From Escherichia phage herni, in the sequence record NC_049823.1: a DNA stretch of 50,971 bases; one strand, written 5' to 3'. Positions 42,636 to 49,233 of this stretch are shown in pieces. Each line of letters starts with the position of its first letter. Positions within the stretch are counted from its first letter, which is position 1. A program made the position numbers and the translations under genes. The notes under the pieces are model-generated. The model saw only the letters and a program-made list of their open reading frames with translations, ran no database searches and was not told where the DNA came from.

Positions 42636-45600
42636 ATGGCTGAAAATATGATAACGGGCAGTAAGGGTGGATCATCAAAACCTTATGTTCCGAAAGAGAT
42701 GGAAGATAACCTGATCTCAATCAACAAAATCAAAATACTTCTTGCCGTTTCCGATGGTGAGTGCGATCCAAGTTTTACACTTCGCGATCTGTATCTTGAT
42801 GATGTTCCGGTAATTGCAGACGACGGAACTGTTAACTACCAGGGTGTGAAAGCTGAATTTCGACCTGGAACGCAGACGCAAGATTACATCCAGGGATTTA
42901 CTGACACATCAAGCGAAGTGACGCTGGCGCGTGACATTACTACATCAAATCCTTATGTAATTTCTGTAACCAACAAAACATTATCGGCTATCAGAATCAA
43001 AATGCTAATGCCAACAGGCATTAAGCAAGAGGATAACGGCGATCTTGTCGGCGTTAAGGTTACTTATGCTGTTGATATGGCTGTTGACGGAGACTCTTAC
43101 AAAGAAGTATTGCTAGACACCATCGAAGGTAAAACGCGTTCCGGTTACGACAGAAGCCGAAGGATTGACCTTCCGGCATTTAATGATCGCGTATTGCTTA
43201 GGGTTAGAAGGGTTACGGCAGACAGCGCATCCTCTCGCGTTACTGATCTGATTAAGCTACAAAGTTACGCTGAGGTTATTGATGCAAAATTCCGTTATCC
43301 TCTGACTGGTCTTGTATACGTTGAACTTGACAGTGAGTTGTTCCCTAACCAGATCCCTAACATTTCAATCAAGAAGAAATGGAAGTTAATTAATGTTCCG
43401 AGCAATTACGATCCAGTAATGCGAGAGTATCACGGTTCATGGGATGGTACTTTCAAGAAAGCGTGGTCGAACAATCCGGCGTGGGTTCTTTATGACATTA
43501 TCACAAACCAGCGATACGGATTAGATCAGCGAGAACTTGGCGTGCAGGTTGACAAATGGAGTCTTTACGAAGCGGCGCAATACTGCGATCAGAAAGTGCC
43601 GGATGGAAAAGGCGGTACAGAGCCGCGTTATCTATGCGACGTTGTGATTCAAAGCCAGATTGAGGCTTATCAGCTTATTCGTGATATTTGCTCAATCTTC
43701 CGAGGCATGAGCTTTTGGAATGGCGAGAGCTTGTCAATCGTCATTGATAAGCCGCGCGATCCGTCGTACATCTTCACCAATGACAACGTTGTTGATGGTG
43801 ATTTTCAGTACACAACAGCAAGCGAAAAGAGCATGTACACGCAGTGCAACGTGACGTTCGACGACGAACAAAACATGTACCAACAGGACGTAGAGGGCGT
43901 ATTCGACACCGAGGCAGCATTGCGATTTGGATACAATCCTACAAGCATAACAGCGATTGGATGTACACGCAGGAGTGAGGCTAATCGGCGCGGTCGATGG
44001 ATACTAAAAACTAACTTGCGCAGCACTACGGTAAACTTTGCTACTGGACTGGAAGGCATGATCCCATCAATAGGTGATGTGATTGCTATTGCTGACAACT
44101 TTCACAGCAGCAACCTTAAGTTAAACCTATCAGGGCGCGTGATGGAAGTTTCAGGCTTGCAGGTGTTCGCTCCGTTTAAGATTGACGCGCGACCAGGTGA
44201 TTTCATTATCATCAACAAGCCAGACGGGAAGCCAGTTAAGCGCACAATCTCAAAAGTAAGCGGTGACGGAAAAACCATTGAGCTAAATATTGGGTTTGGA
44301 TTTGAGGTTAAACCTGACACGGTTTTTGCAATCGACCGCACTGATATTGCATTGCAGCAATACGTTGTAACGAGTATCGGCAAAGGTGATGATGATGATG
44401 AATTTACATACTCCATCACGGCTGTTGAATATGACCCGAACAAATACGACGAGATTGATTATGGAGTAAACATTGACGACAGGCCAACTTCAATTGTCCA
44501 GCCTGACACAATGGCAGCGCCTGAAAATGTGCAAATATCCTCCTACTCGCGAATTGTCCAGGGTGCAAGCGTTGAAACAATGGTTGTGTCGTGGGATAAA
44601 GTACCTTACGCATCGCTGTATGAAATGCAGTGGCGAAAAGGTGATGGCAACTGGCTGAATACACCACAGACTGCAAACAAAGAAATTGAGGTTGAAGGTA
44701 TTTATTCAGGAAACTACCAGGTAAGGGTTAGATCTGTTTCTGCTTCAGGTTCGACGTCGCCGTGGTCCAGAATTGTAACAGCTTCACTGACTGGTAAGGT
44801 AGGAGAGCCAGGCGCGCCAGTTAACTTAACTGCATCCGACAATGAGGTGTTTGGCATTCGTGTTAAGTGGGGGATGCCAGAAGGCAGCGGAGACACGGCA
44901 TACATTGAGCTTCATCAGTCGCCGGATGGAACGGCTGAAAACTCAAGCCTGTTAACTCTGATCCCATATCCACAATATGAATACTGGCACGGTACGCTTC
45001 CGGCTGGTCATGTTGTATGGTATAGAATCCGCAGTGTTGACAGAATCGGCAACGTTTCCGGATGGACTGATTTTGTTAGAGGCATGGCTTCAGATGATGT
45101 GGAGGCTGTTTTAGGCAATATTCTTGATAAGATTTTTGATACCGAAGCAGGGAAGGATCTGAAAGAGAATGCCATTGATAGCGCAAACAAAATCAAGGAT
45201 CAGGCGCAAAGCATCATTCAAAACGCATTGGCGAATGATGCAGACGTTAGGATTATGAGGAAGGAAAACGGAAAACGCAAAGCCGAATTCAGGCAATCAA
45301 TACAGTTGATCGCAGATGAAACTGAGGCGCGCGTTACCGCAATGACGCAACTCAAGGCTGAATTTGACGAGGAAATAACTAGCGAAGTAACGAGGCTTGA
45401 TCAGGCAATTGCAACAGAATCGGAAACGCGAGCAACAGCCATTGAGGAATTGAAATCACAGATTGGAGATGATATTCAGGGGCAGTTAACGAGAGTTGAG
45501 GAGGCGATTGCAAGCGAAACAGAGGCGCGCGTTTCTGCTGACACAGCATTAACAGCGAAGTTTGGAGATGTTGAATCAGCGCTGACGGAAAAACTTGATT

Positions 45601-46061
45601 CATGGGCTGGCGTTAATGGAGTTGGCGCACAGTACGCAATGAAACTTGGATTGACATACAACGGTCAGAAGTACAGTGCTGGTATGGTGATGCAGCTTTC
45701 GCAGGGTTCATCCGGCCTTATTTCGCAGATTTTGTTTGATGCGAACAGGTTCGCTATCATGACAAGTTCGACCGGAGGGTCGTATACATTGCCTTTTGTG
45801 GTTGAAAATAACCAAGTTTTCATTAACAGCCTGTTAGTGAAAAACGGATCAATCACAAACGCCATGATCGGTAACTTCATCCAATCAAACAATTACGTTT
45901 GGAATCAAACAGGATGGAGGCTGGATAAAAACGGAACGTTTGAAAATTATGGTTCTACTCCTGGAGAGGGGGCCATGAAAATGACAAACGAAACGATCAG
46001 CGTTAGGGATGCAAACGGCGTTTTGCGTGTTCAGATTGGTAGGCTTACTGGTACGTGGTAA
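42636..46061 (+). CDS. host specificity / central tail fibre protein (lambda J-like)
   Basis: 1141 aa; position after the K/I-like genes; fibronectin-III-like segment; C-terminal heptad-like ETEAR repeats. Confidence 0.85.
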   Translation: MAENMITGSKGGSSKPYVPKEMEDNLISINKIKILLAVSDGECDPSFTLRDLYLDDVPVIADDGTVNYQGVKAEFRPGTQTQDYIQGFTDTSSEVTLARDITTSNPYVISVTNKTLSAIRIKMLMPTGIKQEDNGDLVGVKVTYAVDMAVDGDSYKEVLLDTIEGKTRSGYDRSRRIDLPAFNDRVLLRVRRVTADSASSRVTDLIKLQSYAEVIDAKFRYPLTGLVYVELDSELFPNQIPNISIKKKWKLINVPSNYDPVMREYHGSWDGTFKKAWSNNPAWVLYDIITNQRYGLDQRELGVQVDKWSLYEAAQYCDQKVPDGKGGTEPRYLCDVVIQSQIEAYQLIRDICSIFRGMSFWNGESLSIVIDKPRDPSYIFTNDNVVDGDFQYTTASEKSMYTQCNVTFDDEQNMYQQDVEGVFDTEAALRFGYNPTSITAIGCTRRSEANRRGRWILKTNLRSTTVNFATGLEGMIPSIGDVIAIADNFHSSNLKLNLSGRVMEVSGLQVFAPFKIDARPGDFIIINKPDGKPVKRTISKVSGDGKTIELNIGFGFEVKPDTVFAIDRTDIALQQYVVTSIGKGDDDDEFTYSITAVEYDPNKYDEIDYGVNIDDRPTSIVQPDTMAAPENVQISSYSRIVQGASVETMVVSWDKVPYASLYEMQWRKGDGNWLNTPQTANKEIEVEGIYSGNYQVRVRSVSASGSTSPWSRIVTASLTGKVGEPGAPVNLTASDNEVFGIRVKWGMPEGSGDTAYIELHQSPDGTAENSSLLTLIPYPQYEYWHGTLPAGHVVWYRIRSVDRIGNVSGWTDFVRGMASDDVEAVLGNILDKIFDTEAGKDLKENAIDSANKIKDQAQSIIQNALANDADVRIMRKENGKRKAEFRQSIQLIADETEARVTAMTQLKAEFDEEITSEVTRLDQAIATESETRATAIEELKSQIGDDIQGQLTRVEEAIASETEARVSADTALTAKFGDVESALTEKLDSWAGVNGVGAQYAMKLGLTYNGQKYSAGMVMQLSQGSSGLISQILFDANRFAIMTSSTGGSYTLPFVVENNQVFINSLLVKNGSITNAMIGNFIQSNNYVWNQTGWRLDKNGTFENYGSTPGEGAMKMTNETISVRDANGVLRVQIGRLTGTW

Positions 46062-46066
46062 AATCA

Positions 46067-46092
46067 AAGCGGGGCATTTGCCCCGCATTTAT
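46067..46092 (+). terminator. rho-independent terminator
   Basis: GCGGGGC-attt-GCCCCGC followed by ATTTAT. Confidence 0.5.
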
Positions 46093-46104: not shown

Positions 46105-46410
46105 ATGGCTGAATATGGTGTTTCAACGTGGGATGCTAACGGGAAGTATAACAACTACGGAATCAAGCCAGTTTCCGTTGTTGGTGTCATTAGCCTTGCG
46201 GCTGGTCAGACAAGCGGATCGTGGAGCTTTAGCATTCCAAGTGGTTTTAAGGTTGGGTATGTTGTTTCGCTTGATGAGGGTGCTAGAGGGGTTGGAAGGG
46301 AAATAGTAGCATCTGGAAACACAATAAGAATCAGTCCTACATCTTCAGTTGGTGCAAATAGATATTCTTCTTCAAAGTGTGAGTTAGTTGTTTTTCTTGA
46401 GAGGGCTTAA
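46105..46410 (+). CDS. hypothetical protein (101 aa), MAEYG paralogue 1
   Basis: Start at MAEYGVSTWDANGKY with GGAGG Shine-Dalgarno. Confidence 0.5.
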   Translation: MAEYGVSTWDANGKYNNYGIKPVSVVGVISLAAGQTSGSWSFSIPSGFKVGYVVSLDEGARGVGREIVASGNTIRISPTSSVGANRYSSSKCELVVFLERA

Positions 46411-46411
46411 A

Positions 46412-47053
46412 ATGGCTGAATATGGAGCAATGTTATCTTTATCAAATGGGAATCCATTTATCACACCAAAATCAACGCCATTTTGCTTATATGGCAAGTA
46501 CACTTATTCATCTTCTGGCACTTCTGCCTATCATAGCGCAAGCGCAAATATACCATTGAATCAATCTTATCCATGTATGGCATTTATAAAAACAACAAAC
46601 ACACAGCAGCCAACTGCATTAATAGCTTACAGGAATGGTGGCAACATTTATGTAAACGGAGGCAATCCATACGGGCAATCATTTACAATGACTGTTTATA
46701 TATTTGCCATATTCCCTCAAACTCTACCCAAATATGGTATGGCTATATGGGATGCAAGCGGCAAGTTGGTTTTAACTAATGAAAGCAGGGTGCTAACAGA
46801 TCTTGTTACAATTGGTACTCCTGGTTCTTCAGGTGGAACGAATATAGATCAAACGTTATCTGGTTCTTATGCCGTTTGCCCTTCAAGGCTTGGTGCGGTT
46901 GTAGGCATGGGTGCTTCTGACATATATACATCATGCAGGTATGATGGTTCAAGCACAAGGATAGGTGCAGCAAGGACAACGCCAGGAACAGGATCTATAA
47001 CAAATAACGGAAATTCAATAATTGCAATAAGGACTGATATTTACGACCAATGA
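46412..47053 (+). CDS. hypothetical Ser/Thr/Gly-rich protein (213 aa), MAEYG paralogue 2
   Basis: Start at MAEYGAMLSL; internal YGMAIWDASGKL resembles the N-terminus of the previous gene. Confidence 0.5.
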   Translation: MAEYGAMLSLSNGNPFITPKSTPFCLYGKYTYSSSGTSAYHSASANIPLNQSYPCMAFIKTTNTQQPTALIAYRNGGNIYVNGGNPYGQSFTMTVYIFAIFPQTLPKYGMAIWDASGKLVLTNESRVLTDLVTIGTPGSSGGTNIDQTLSGSYAVCPSRLGAVVGMGASDIYTSCRYDGSSTRIGAARTTPGTGSITNNGNSIIAIRTDIYDQ

Positions 47054-47082
47054 AAAAGGGGCTTTCGCCCCTTTATTTTTAT
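47053..47082. terminator. bidirectional rho-independent terminator between convergent genes
   Basis: GGGGC-tttc-GCCCC flanked by an A-run upstream and a T-run downstream. Confidence 0.6.
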
Positions 47083-47310
47083 TTACATACTGCAATCAGC
47101 GTTTTTAAAGTTATCAATACTTACCCACTGAAAATTAAACGGATAGCCAGCCTTAACAAGAGTGCGGTCGCCAACTCGTTTTACTCCAAAAATAGCAACT
47201 GAATACTGCATACCGCTATTTTCATAAATAGCCGTGCATTCACGCTTAGGCATATTTGCGCAACCAGTCAGGGTTGCGGCTGCAATCAAAACGGCGATTA
47301 ATTTTTTCAT
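47083..47310 (-). CDS. small outer-membrane lipoprotein, possibly Cor-like superinfection exclusion protein
   Basis: 75 aa; signal peptide with lipobox LTGC; size and position next to tail genes as for Cor-type proteins; functional assignment is inference. Confidence 0.45.
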   Translation of the reverse strand: MKKLIAVLIAAATLTGCANMPKRECTAIYENSGMQYSVAIFGVKRVGDRTLVKAGYPFNFQWVSIDNFKNADCSM

Positions 47311-47366
47311 CTTGGTATCTCCTTAGTTGTTGTTGGTTGCAACTATACACGATCTTGCGGCGGTCG

Positions 47367-47385
47367 TTTAGCAAAAAGTGCTATT
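47367..47385 (-). promoter_or_regulatory. conserved intergenic motif (minus orientation) upstream of the lipoprotein gene
   Basis: TTTAGCAAAAAGTGCTATT. Confidence 0.4.
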
Positions 47386-47449
47386 CTGTTCTTTTTGTTT
47401 TCCTGCGTTCTCAAATCTGCGGAGGCGTAAATTTAGCGCAAAAAGTGAG

Positions 47450-47650
47450 CAACAATAGAGCGTAATAAATACAGATAAATATATATACATATATATAAAT
47501 CAATAAGTTAGCAGTATATATATTTATATTTGTTTTTTCTTGTTATCTATGTTTTGTGTGATTTTGTGTGTCTGGTAATTTTTATGTGGTTGTGTATGTG
47601 TCAGTGCTTGTGTGTGTCTATATATCCATATCCGGCGCAAATGGAGGAAC
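47450..47650. repeat. AT-rich then TG-rich low-complexity element (copy B), homologous to 17935-18115
   Basis: AAATCAATAAGTTAGCAGTATATATATTTATATTTGTT followed by TG-rich tracts. Confidence 0.5.
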
Positions 47651-47763
47651 AAGAGAACAAAAAGACAACAAAGATATTTATCAATCACTTACATGTAAAT
47701 TTTGTTATCCGATTCGTCTGGAACGTTGTTAGAACAGAAAAAACAAAATAACTGTTGACTAAA

Positions 47764-47791
47764 CGCATTAAATAGCTAAAATGCAGGCATA
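47764..47791 (+). promoter_or_regulatory. sigma70-like promoter (TTGACT, 16 nt, TAAAAT)
   Basis: Near-consensus hexamers about 20 nt upstream of the gene at 47812. Confidence 0.5.
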
Positions 47792-47811
47792 CCAACAAAC
47801 GAGGGCAAATC

Positions 47812-48954: not shown

Positions 48955-49233
48955 ATGGAAAACAAGCAAGTGTCAGAGGTGGCAGTTCATATCAACAATT
49001 TTGCAACTGGCATGGCTATGTTGCTTCGTGACTTTGTGGCGCCACTTGATCCAACTGCAGGCGAAGAAGAAATGGAGTACATCAGAAAAGTAATTGATGC
49101 GGTCGATAACGTCGTACTTATTGCAACAATGAGCGAAGACAACGATGAAGCAATCAAGGCGGTAAAAGAAAGTTCTGATCGCATGATGGAAAATCTGATT
49201 AAATTACACACCAAAGAAGAAACAAAGCACTAA
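48955..49233 (+). CDS. hypothetical protein (92 aa, acidic)
   Basis: ORF track; GAGGAAA Shine-Dalgarno. Confidence 0.5.
   Translation: MENKQVSEVAVHINNFATGMAMLLRDFVAPLDPTAGEEEMEYIRKVIDAVDNVVLIATMSEDNDEAIKAVKESSDRMMENLIKLHTKEETKH

What the first reader, a model, noticed from the sequence alone, without database searches (positions are those of the whole stretch)
46105..47310. Paralogous MAEYG pair downstream of the J-like gene, convergent with a small lipoprotein
Two consecutive genes start with MAEYG and share a WDA(N/S)GK segment; the second is Ser/Thr/Gly-rich. They are followed by a bidirectional terminator and a convergent 75-aa lipoprotein (lipobox LTGC). The arrangement resembles receptor-binding accessory proteins plus a Cor-like exclusion lipoprotein.
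Basis: partly seen in the sequence, partly recalled or inferred. Interest (0 to 1): 0.45.

Follow-up and report, generated by a model that had tools for sequence, protein, structure and literature searches.

The report
FhuA receptor-binding cassette plus Cor
The genes after the tail-tip gene of this T1-like coliphage are the already described "FhuA cassette": two small tail-tip proteins, the larger of which probably binds the host receptor, plus the Cor lipoprotein that blocks that receptor. It is an ordinary, known arrangement.

Summary
The window is Escherichia phage vB_EcoS_G29-2 (Hanrivervirus, Drexlerviridae), at 100% identity.

- **Gene A** (46105-46410, 101 aa) and **gene B** (46412-47053, 213 aa) both start MAEYG and share WDA(N/S)GK.
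- **Hairpin** at 47055-47074 folds at about -14 kcal/mol on either strand.
- **Lipoprotein** (47310-47083, 75 aa, convergent) is a true Cor: NCBIfam NF047972 scores 69 bits against a cutoff of 31.

The order J-A-B-Cor recurs in 80 of 81 related loci. The literature already describes it as the FhuA-specific allele of the receptor-binding locus downstream of gpJ. It is reported for T1, phi80, N15 and HK022, and more recently for Drexlerviridae and Dhillonvirus phages.

My own additions:
- A and B have no signal peptide or membrane segment.
- Klebsiella Webervirus keeps J-A-B without cor.
- B's N-terminal domain is conserved across distant relatives while its C-terminal domain is replaced.

These points favour B as the receptor-binding protein and argue against the "membrane protein" labels. 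"Paralogous" is only partly supported, because sequence similarity is limited to a 12-18-residue motif. The finding is already known and of low to moderate interest.

The parts
42636..46061 (+). gpJ-like central tail fibre / tip attachment protein (1141 aa). It is the platform to which the downstream proteins are thought to attach.
   Evidence: Pfam FNIII-A_GpJ, Phage-tail_3 and Phage_Tail_Tip (residues 983-1118); phrog_31 central tail fiber J. 58.7% identical over its whole length to Rtp43 of the LptD-using phage Rtp.
46069..46086 (+). GC-rich hairpin between J and gene A, followed by a weak U-tract (AUUUAU). It may act as a partial terminator or attenuator.
   Evidence: -16.5 kcal/mol, z = -2.7. 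Annotated as a terminator in the record. The pattern scan finds it only on the minus strand. It is absent in lambdoid relatives, where the J stop and the A start are 1 nt apart.
46105..46410 (+). Gene A: 101-aa cytoplasmically made beta-sandwich protein (phrog_557, mislabelled 'outer membrane protein'). It is a probable second tail-tip component; its exact role is unknown.
   Evidence: phrog_557 E = 3.8e-30. 105 homologues, always next to B. AF2 model pLDDT 89 with six strands at 24-100. The N-terminal 22 residues are the best conserved part but have low confidence in the monomer model. No signal peptide or TM segment.
46412..47053 (+). Gene B: 213-aa two-domain all-beta protein (phrog_425, mislabelled 'membrane associated protein'). 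It is the probable FhuA-binding receptor-binding protein carried at the tip of J.
47055..47074 (.). Bidirectional intrinsic terminator shared by the convergent A-B and cor transcripts.
   Evidence: 8-bp stem AAAGGGGC/GCCCCTTT with U-runs on both strands. -14.1 and -13.9 kcal/mol. Annotated as a terminator in the record.
47083..47310 (-). cor: 75-aa superinfection-exclusion lipoprotein that inactivates FhuA from the periplasmic side.
   Evidence: NF047972 lamb_exclu_cor 69.4 bits (cutoff 31); phrog_1119 E = 3.1e-28. Lipobox LTGC, Ala at +2, two further invariant Cys (C25, C73) and the AGYPF motif shared by 38 distinct relatives. AAGGAG ribosome-binding site 8 nt upstream of the ATG.
47311..47811 (.). 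AT-rich spacer (GC 28-35%) between cor and the divergent exonuclease VIII gene. It is the presumed promoter region for cor; this is an inference.
   Evidence: Composition and small repeats. Promoter-like hexamers on both strands, but no more than in shuffled sequence.

Best explanation
This is the FhuA-specific allele of the receptor-specificity cassette that small lambda-like siphophages carry directly after gpJ.

**Genes A and B.** They are made late with the tail genes and are translationally coupled. [quoted passage not shown]

**B as receptor-binding protein.** Its conserved N-terminal part and inter-domain block probably hold it on J. Its more variable C-terminal domain probably contacts the extracellular loops of the TonB-dependent transporter FhuA and so triggers irreversible adsorption.

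**A.** It is a small beta-sandwich with the same conserved N-terminal strand motif. It is a second tip component, either an adaptor or stabiliser or a further binding module. Its role is the least certain step.

**Cor.** It is transcribed from the opposite strand, probably from the early-region spacer. It is exported, lipidated and anchored in the outer membrane. There it binds FhuA from the periplasmic side, as Llp of T5 does. This blocks superinfection by FhuA-dependent phages and stops progeny being lost on cell debris.

**Shown here:** gene structure, family membership of Cor, synteny, B's fold relation to a solved RBP, and the absence of export signals in A and B.

**Inferred:** virion location, stoichiometry, which domain touches FhuA, and the timing of cor expression.
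For: **Identity of the phage and its receptor.**
- The window is 100% identical to Hanrivervirus G29-2.
- Hanrivervirus JLBYU41 is 93% identical across the locus and was shown to depend on FhuA (PMC10373560).

**Cor.**
- It scores above NCBIfam's curated cutoff and has all conserved features of the family.

**Synteny.**
- J-A-B occurs in 81 of 81 loci, and Cor lies directly after B in 80 of 81.
- Carriers include phi80, N15 genes 22/23, the HK and mEp phages, Dhillonvirus and Tunavirus.
- In lambdoid relatives the J stop and A start are 1 nt apart and A's stop overlaps B's start, so the three form one late translational unit.

**B as a receptor-binding protein.**
- The most conserved blocks of B are residues 1-27 and 94-135. 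Residues 28-93 and 136-213 vary more.
- About 30 distant relatives match only profile positions 1 to about 130. This is the usual receptor-binding-protein pattern of a conserved anchor and an exchangeable binding domain.

**A and B are not membrane proteins and do not need Cor.**
- Neither has a signal peptide or TM segment.
- Webervirus keeps J-A-B without cor.

**Literature.**
- Alleles of this locus match receptor use without exception (PMC8594841), confirmed in bioRxiv 10.64898/2026.04.02.716166.
- AlphaFold2-Multimer places the B homologue as a monomeric cap on the J trimer and docks it on FhuA (PMC12309495).
- Cor is predicted to have an Llp-like fold and to dock on the periplasmic face of FhuA (PMC13164509).
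Against: - No experiment shows that A or B is in the virion or binds FhuA.
- The T1 cryo-EM structure did not resolve the distal 350 residues of gp33 and saw neither protein (PMC11945409).
- B's relation to the solved receptor-binding protein is structural only. HMM and profile comparisons with DUF6453 are not significant.
- B homologues also occur in Stx phage 24B, which uses BamA, and in Klebsiella phages without Cor, whose receptor I did not determine. The family is therefore not strictly tied to FhuA.
- FhuA dependence of G29-2 itself was not found in any paper read.
- Early expression of cor is not supported by the promoter scan, which found no more sites than in shuffled sequence.
Confidence: 0.75

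Rival explanations
1. A and B are accessory components of the superinfection-exclusion system. They would act as membrane proteins that help Cor inactivate FhuA, and would not be virion proteins.
For: [quoted passage not shown]
- Linkage with cor is tight, 80 of 81 loci.
- The KanT1 paper assumed this role after finding no fold hits (PMC13164509).
Against: - Neither A nor B has a signal peptide, lipobox or TM segment. The maximum 19-residue Kyte-Doolittle hydropathy is about 1.0.
- Membrane-affinity estimates for homologues are low (PMC12309495, Table 1).
- Webervirus has J-A-B without cor.
- In T1-like phages A and B are on the late tail strand and cor is on the other strand.
- B has the fold of a solved receptor-binding protein.
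Confidence: 0.05
2. A and/or B are assembly chaperones for the distal part of the J fibre, in the way Tfa or gp38 serve some tail fibres. They would be absent from the mature virion, and J's own C-terminus would bind FhuA.
For: - They sit directly after J and are translationally coupled to it.
- Matusiak et al. mention a possible structural or chaperone-like role.
- The GpJ C-terminal tip also carries receptor-associated sequence features.
Against: - The J C-terminus is well conserved between the FhuA-type J (this window) and the LptD-type J (Rtp43), which are 58.7% identical to the end. The downstream genes differ completely. Specificity therefore tracks the downstream genes.
- The protein at the equivalent position in the LptD allele binds the receptor directly in a cryo-EM structure.
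- A roughly 21-kDa band compatible with the B homologue is present in Littlefixvirus virions, though by SDS-PAGE only.
Confidence: 0.1
3. The small protein A, as a homotrimer that replaces the lambda gpJ C-terminal receptor-binding domain, is the actual FhuA binder. B would be a cap or adaptor.
For: - Matusiak et al. describe A homologues as Ig-like and similar to lambda gpJ's C-terminal domain, and could model a trimer on J.
- A's N-terminal motif is its most conserved part.
Against: - The same authors found the A-FhuA models the worst and the B-FhuA models the best.
- B, not A, matches the solved receptor-binding protein strongly.
Confidence: 0.08

Closest known systems
The 'cor cassette', or FhuA allele of the RBP locus downstream of gpJ. 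Described for T1, phi80, N15, HK022 and ES18, and for BASEL Drexlerviridae and Dhillonvirus phages (Wietzorrek 2006 as cited in PMC13164509; PMC8594841; PMC12309495; bioRxiv 10.64898/2026.04.02.716166).
   Same: - Same three gene families (phrog_557, phrog_425, Cor).
- Same position after J and same gene order.
- The window is an annotated member: G29-2 gp47-gp49.
   Different: Nothing substantive. In T1-like phages, including this one, cor is inverted and convergent. In lambdoid prophages it is co-directional, with a spacer of about 110 nt.
LptD allele of the same locus: Rtp44 / RBP of Oekolampad (DUF6453, PF20051; PDB 9RPT) plus the exclusion lipoprotein Rtp45 (bioRxiv 10.1101/2025.07.07.663478).
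   Same: - Same genomic slot after a homologous J (58.7% identity).
- A small periplasmic lipoprotein is paired with the receptor-binding protein.
   Different: - One 311-327-aa protein instead of two (101 + 213 aa).
- No significant sequence similarity to A, B or Cor.
- Both genes lie on the opposite strand to J.
- The receptor is LptDE rather than FhuA.
- Exclusion works by steric displacement of a loop rather than allostery.
T5 pb5 / Llp (PDB 8A60; PMC9586334).
   Same: - Functional analogue. A monomeric receptor-binding protein at the end of a trimeric central fibre binds FhuA.
- A small lipoprotein with a disulfide binds FhuA's periplasmic face to exclude superinfection.
- Cor is predicted to have an Llp-like fold, TM 0.69 (PMC13164509).
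   Different: - pb5 is a 640-aa protein that did not appear among B's listed structural matches.
- pb5 is encoded elsewhere in the genome.
- Cor and Llp are separate sequence families.
Lambda gpJ C-terminal receptor-binding domain (LamB).
   Same: Same tail-tip architecture, and a receptor-binding function at the distal end of J.
   Different: - In lambda the binding domain is part of J.
- Here J ends in the Phage_Tail_Tip domain, and binding is delegated to separately encoded proteins.

Membership tests
Cor superinfection-exclusion lipoprotein (NCBIfam NF047972 / phrog_1119) | Sequence match above the curated family threshold | tested here: met
   69.4 bits against a cutoff of 31, full-length match 1-74 of 78. 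phrog_1119 E = 3.1e-28.
Cor superinfection-exclusion lipoprotein (NCBIfam NF047972 / phrog_1119) | Sec/SPII signal peptide with a lipobox, and a non-Asp residue at +2 (outer-membrane sorting) | tested here: met
   MKKLIAVLIAAATLTG|C-A. Pfam LPAM_1 hit at E = 0.0014 and 19.4 bits, just under its 20-bit cutoff, so weak support only.
Cor superinfection-exclusion lipoprotein (NCBIfam NF047972 / phrog_1119) | Conserved mature-protein features: two further Cys and the AGYPF(N/S)W motif | tested here: met
   C25, C73 and AGYPFNF align with invariant columns in 38 distinct relatives.
Cor superinfection-exclusion lipoprotein (NCBIfam NF047972 / phrog_1119) | Excludes FhuA-dependent phages when expressed | not testable with these tools
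   Needs plating assays. Reported for T1, phi80, N15 and mEp167 Cor in literature cited by PMC13164509.
FhuA allele of the RBP locus downstream of gpJ | Located immediately after the gpJ homologue, on the same strand | tested here: met
   J stops at 46061 and A starts at 46105.
FhuA allele of the RBP locus downstream of gpJ | Contains the phrog_557 and phrog_425 gene pair followed by cor | tested here: met
   The same order is seen in 80 of 81 related loci.
FhuA allele of the RBP locus downstream of gpJ | The phage depends on FhuA for infection | not tested
   No data found for G29-2 itself. JLBYU41, with 93% locus identity, is FhuA-dependent.
DUF6453 (PF20051) receptor-binding proteins (Rtp44 / RBP of Oekolampad) | Sequence match to the Pfam model or family profile | tested here: not met
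   No PF20051 hit for A, B or any of their 187 family members, even at E <= 10. hhalign probabilities are below 10%.
DUF6453 (PF20051) receptor-binding proteins (Rtp44 / RBP of Oekolampad) | Shared three-dimensional fold | tested here: met
Outer-membrane or membrane-associated protein (PHROG/RefSeq labels of A and B) | Export signal, transmembrane segment or beta-barrel | tested here: not met
   No signal peptide or TM segment; maximum hydropathy about 1.0. The models are soluble beta-sandwiches.

The most novel reading that the evidence does not exclude
A and B together may be a split version of the single-chain DUF6453 receptor-binding protein.

- **Lengths.** 101 + 213 = 314 aa for A plus B, against 311-327 aa for DUF6453 proteins.
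- **Modules.** Each system would have three roughly 100-residue beta modules. Each module would start with the same strand-turn motif, x-G-h-x-h-x-(D/N)-x-x-(G/N).
- **Function.** The modules would form a pseudo-threefold adaptor that fits one asymmetric receptor binder onto the threefold J fibre.
- **Implication.** The FhuA and LptD alleles of the locus, currently called unrelated, would then share one ancestor.

The evidence is suggestive only:
- A's strands fall at almost the same positions as those of B's N-terminal domain.
- The motif blocks are among the most conserved parts of each family.
- A position-specific scoring (PSSM) test of the motif in Rtp44 was not significant, and no A-B fusion was found.
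Probability: 0.15. Interest if true: 0.5.

Novelty: already known. Interest (0 to 1): 0.25.

Why it matters
This cassette decides which outer-membrane protein small T1-like and lambdoid siphophages use. It is therefore a practical handle for predicting and re-engineering host range, and for understanding why T1-type contaminants are blocked by fhuA (tonA) mutations.

For this window the value is mainly corrective.
- The fold link between the FhuA-type protein B and the solved LptD-binding protein suggests that alleles described as unrelated may share a common architecture.

Neither point changes the accepted picture.

Tried and rejected
- **Sequence homology between A/B and DUF6453 (Rtp44 family).** hmmsearch, hhalign on whole proteins and on domain pieces, and Pfam scans of all family members at E <= 10 all came out non-significant.
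- **Threefold internal repeat in Rtp44.** A scoring matrix built from the A, B N-terminal and B mid-protein motif ranked positions 208, 2 and 114 among the top four. The scores were no better than shuffled sequence (null 95th percentile -0.4, observed -3.8). The idea is kept only as speculation.
- **B's two halves as a tandem duplication.** hhalign gave E = 0.27, so there is no support.
- **PDB sequence relatives of A or B.** None were found.
- **Pfam and NCBIfam families for A and B.** None were found.
- **Virion proteomics for a T1-like phage.** The Sfin-1 paper turned out to describe a phage whose locus has the LptD-type (DUF6453-like) gene sizes. Its mass-spectrometry list is not informative.
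- **Promoter scan for cor.** Candidate sites were no more frequent than in shuffled sequence.
- **Natural A-B fusions.** None were found. The one 337-aa hit is a J fragment joined to part of B.

Full report
**What the window is.** The 1.7 kb around the finding is 100% identical to Escherichia phage vB_EcoS_G29-2 (Hanrivervirus, Tempevirinae, Drexlerviridae). It is 93-99% identical to other Hanrivervirus phages. In the RefSeq record the genes are gp46 (tail protein J), gp47 'outer membrane protein', gp48 'membrane associated protein' and gp49 'Cor superinfection exclusion protein'. Terminators are annotated after J and after gp48.

**Checking the observation.** The ORF list and sequence confirm the features below.
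- Gene A is 46105-46410 (+), 101 aa, and starts MAEYGVSTWDANGK.
- Gene B is 46412-47053 (+), 213 aa, and starts MAEYGAML. It has KYGMAIWDASGK at residues 107-118.
- A 75-aa ORF at 47310-47083 (-) carries the lipobox LTGC.
- A has a GGAGG ribosome-binding site. B's ATG lies 1 nt after A's stop. The first 14 nt of the two genes are identical.
- The hairpin at 47055-47074 folds at about -14 kcal/mol on both strands and has U-runs on both sides.
- A second hairpin at 46069-46086 (-16.5 kcal/mol) separates J from A.
- Both A and B are 33-34% Ser+Thr+Gly, against 19% in the window's long ORFs.

**How far 'paralogous' holds.**
- BLASTP aligns only A 1-14 with B 105-118 (E = 6e-4), and A 1-14 with B 1-14 (E = 0.14).
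- Family profiles (92 and 95 sequences) align over 12-18 columns, E = 2.4e-5 to 5.7e-5, probability 66-79%.
- A against B's N-terminal half aligns over 80 columns, but at only 17.5% probability.
- The AlphaFold models give A six strands (24-31, 38-41, 48-55, 65-70, 73-78, 92-100). B's N-terminal domain has six strands at almost the same positions (25-33, 41-48, 55-62, 69-75, 78-85, 92-99).
- A common origin for A and a B domain is therefore plausible but not demonstrated.
- The exact MAEYG string is specific to this clade, because N-termini vary within each family.

**The lipoprotein.** It is a Cor protein.
- It scores 69.4 bits against NCBIfam equivalog NF047972 (cutoff 31), and E = 3e-28 against phrog_1119.
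- Aligned with 38 distinct relatives recovered from related loci, it keeps four features: the lipidated Cys, Ala at +2, two further invariant Cys (C25, C73) and the AGYPF motif.

**What A and B are.**
- They match no Pfam or NCBIfam family and have no sequence relatives in the PDB.
- They belong to phrog_557 and phrog_425.
- Homologues are numerous in enterobacterial phages and prophages. tblastn finds B in 350 phage records. These include phi80, N15 (genes 22/23), HK75, HK542, HK633 and the mEp phages. They also include Dhillonvirus (JLBYU37, Teewinot), Tunavirus and Klebsiella Webervirus.
- I fetched 80 related viral contigs and scanned them with local HMMs. J-A-B is present in all 81 loci, and a Cor homologue lies directly after B in 80 of 81.
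- In lambdoid relatives the J stop and A start are 1 nt apart and A's stop overlaps B's start (TAATG). Cor follows co-directionally after an AT-rich spacer of about 110 nt.
- In T1-like phages (this window, and ADB-2) cor is inverted and convergent.

**What the literature says.** This cassette is already described.
- Section 2.5 of PMC13164509 summarises Wietzorrek et al. 2006. The three genes occur in the same order after the tail fibre genes in T1, HK022, N15, ES18 and phi80, all of them FhuA-dependent.
- The same section shows the cassette in all FhuA-using Drexlerviridae and Dhillonvirus phages of the BASEL collection.
- A 2026 preprint confirmed this across 101 siphoviruses. It called the FhuA, BtuB, LptD and YncD proteins four unrelated families.
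- Matusiak et al. modelled the homologues from JLBYU60, Stx phage 24B and a Pseudomonas phage. The B homologue was favoured as a monomeric cap on the J trimer and as the FhuA (or BamA) binder (PMC12309495).
- JLBYU41, 93% identical to this locus, is experimentally FhuA-dependent (PMC10373560).
- No experiment yet shows A or B in a virion. The T1 cryo-EM map did not resolve the distal part of gp33 (PMC11945409).
- The KanT1 authors found no fold hits for A and B and guessed an exclusion-related role.

   - 9rpt_C is the receptor-binding protein of phage Oekolampad in complex with LptDE (bioRxiv 10.1101/2025.07.07.663478).
   - It is a DUF6453/PF20051 homologue of Rtp44, E = 8.5e-44.
   - Rtp44 occupies the same slot after a J protein 58.7% identical to this window's J.
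   - The relation cannot be seen by sequence.
2. A and B have no signal peptide or membrane segment. The 'membrane' labels are therefore unsupported.
3. Klebsiella phage KpKT21phi1 (Webervirus) has J-A-B but no Cor within 3 kb. A and B therefore do not depend on Cor.
4. A profile search of 1.84 billion representatives finds a compact family: 136 clusters, almost all 205-240 aa. About 30 distant members match only profile positions 1 to about 130. One of them (P0393) has an unrelated C-terminus.
   - Within the family the best-conserved blocks are residues 1-27 and 94-135.
   - This is the usual pattern of a conserved attachment part and an exchangeable receptor-binding part.

**Mechanism.** Putting this together:
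- B is most likely the FhuA-binding protein, carried as a cap on the J trimer.
- A is a second tip component of unknown role.
- Cor is the cognate exclusion lipoprotein, acting on FhuA from the periplasm in the way Llp of T5 does.
- I put 0.75 on this overall picture.

The rivals are weaker for the reasons given under each. They are an exclusion-accessory role, an assembly-chaperone role, and A rather than B being the binder.

**A speculative extension.**
- A + B (314 aa) is about the size of DUF6453 receptor-binding proteins (311-327 aa).
- All six putative module starts carry a similar strand-turn motif. In A, B and Rtp44 these blocks are among the most conserved.
- This suggests a split three-module receptor-binding protein that adapts an asymmetric binder to a threefold fibre.
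- An objective scoring-matrix test was not significant, and no A-B fusion exists in the databases searched.
- I give this 0.15.

**Verdict.** It describes a known, annotated cassette in a known phage. The only modest additions are the fold link between the FhuA-type and LptD-type receptor-binding proteins and the case against the 'membrane protein' annotations.

Noticed in passing
GenBank MG0656xx records (hits H11-H14, H24, H25, H32, H35, H61, H63): Eighteen records named 'Campylobacter phage' with host C. jejuni are 92-94% identical to this E. coli T1-like locus and encode the FhuA cassette. The host label looks doubtful; contamination or mislabelling is possible.
   Followed up: no
window 48955-49233 (+): RefSeq names this 92-aa ORF 'tail length tape measure protein'. 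It sits between the exonuclease VIII and Erf genes in the recombination module, so this is probably a misannotation.
   Followed up: no
L083 (Escherichia phage ADB-2) 2158-2501: The A homologue is split into two overlapping ORF fragments and is not annotated in the record. This is either a frameshift pseudogene or a sequencing error. If real, A would be dispensable in that phage.
   Followed up: partly
window 47311-47811: A 0.5-kb AT-rich spacer (GC 28-35%) between cor and the divergent exonuclease VIII gene. It contains an (AT)11 run, 10-11-bp tandem repeats and TG-rich tracts. It is presumably a regulatory region for early genes and cor.
   Followed up: partly
window 46069-46086: A strong GC hairpin with a weak U-tract lies between J and gene A. 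It is absent from lambdoid relatives, where J and A are 1 nt apart. It could lower A/B expression relative to J.
   Followed up: partly
L005-L081 compared with L001-L004, L015 and L083: The orientation of cor differs by lineage. It is co-directional after B in lambdoid prophages, as a moron-like unit behind an AT-rich spacer of about 110 nt. It is inverted and convergent in T1-like virulent phages.
   Followed up: partly
L084 (Klebsiella phage KpKT21phi1) 2687-3660: Webervirus phages carry A and B homologues (B about 32% identical) directly after J. They have no cor; a convergent lateral tail fibre gene follows instead.
   Followed up: yes
proteins P0294 and P0393: P0294 is a J fragment fused in frame to the C-terminal two thirds of a B homologue, probably a deletion derivative. 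P0393 has a B-like N-terminal domain and inter-domain motif followed by an unrelated Trp/Tyr/Lys-rich C-terminus, which would be a domain swap.
   Followed up: partly
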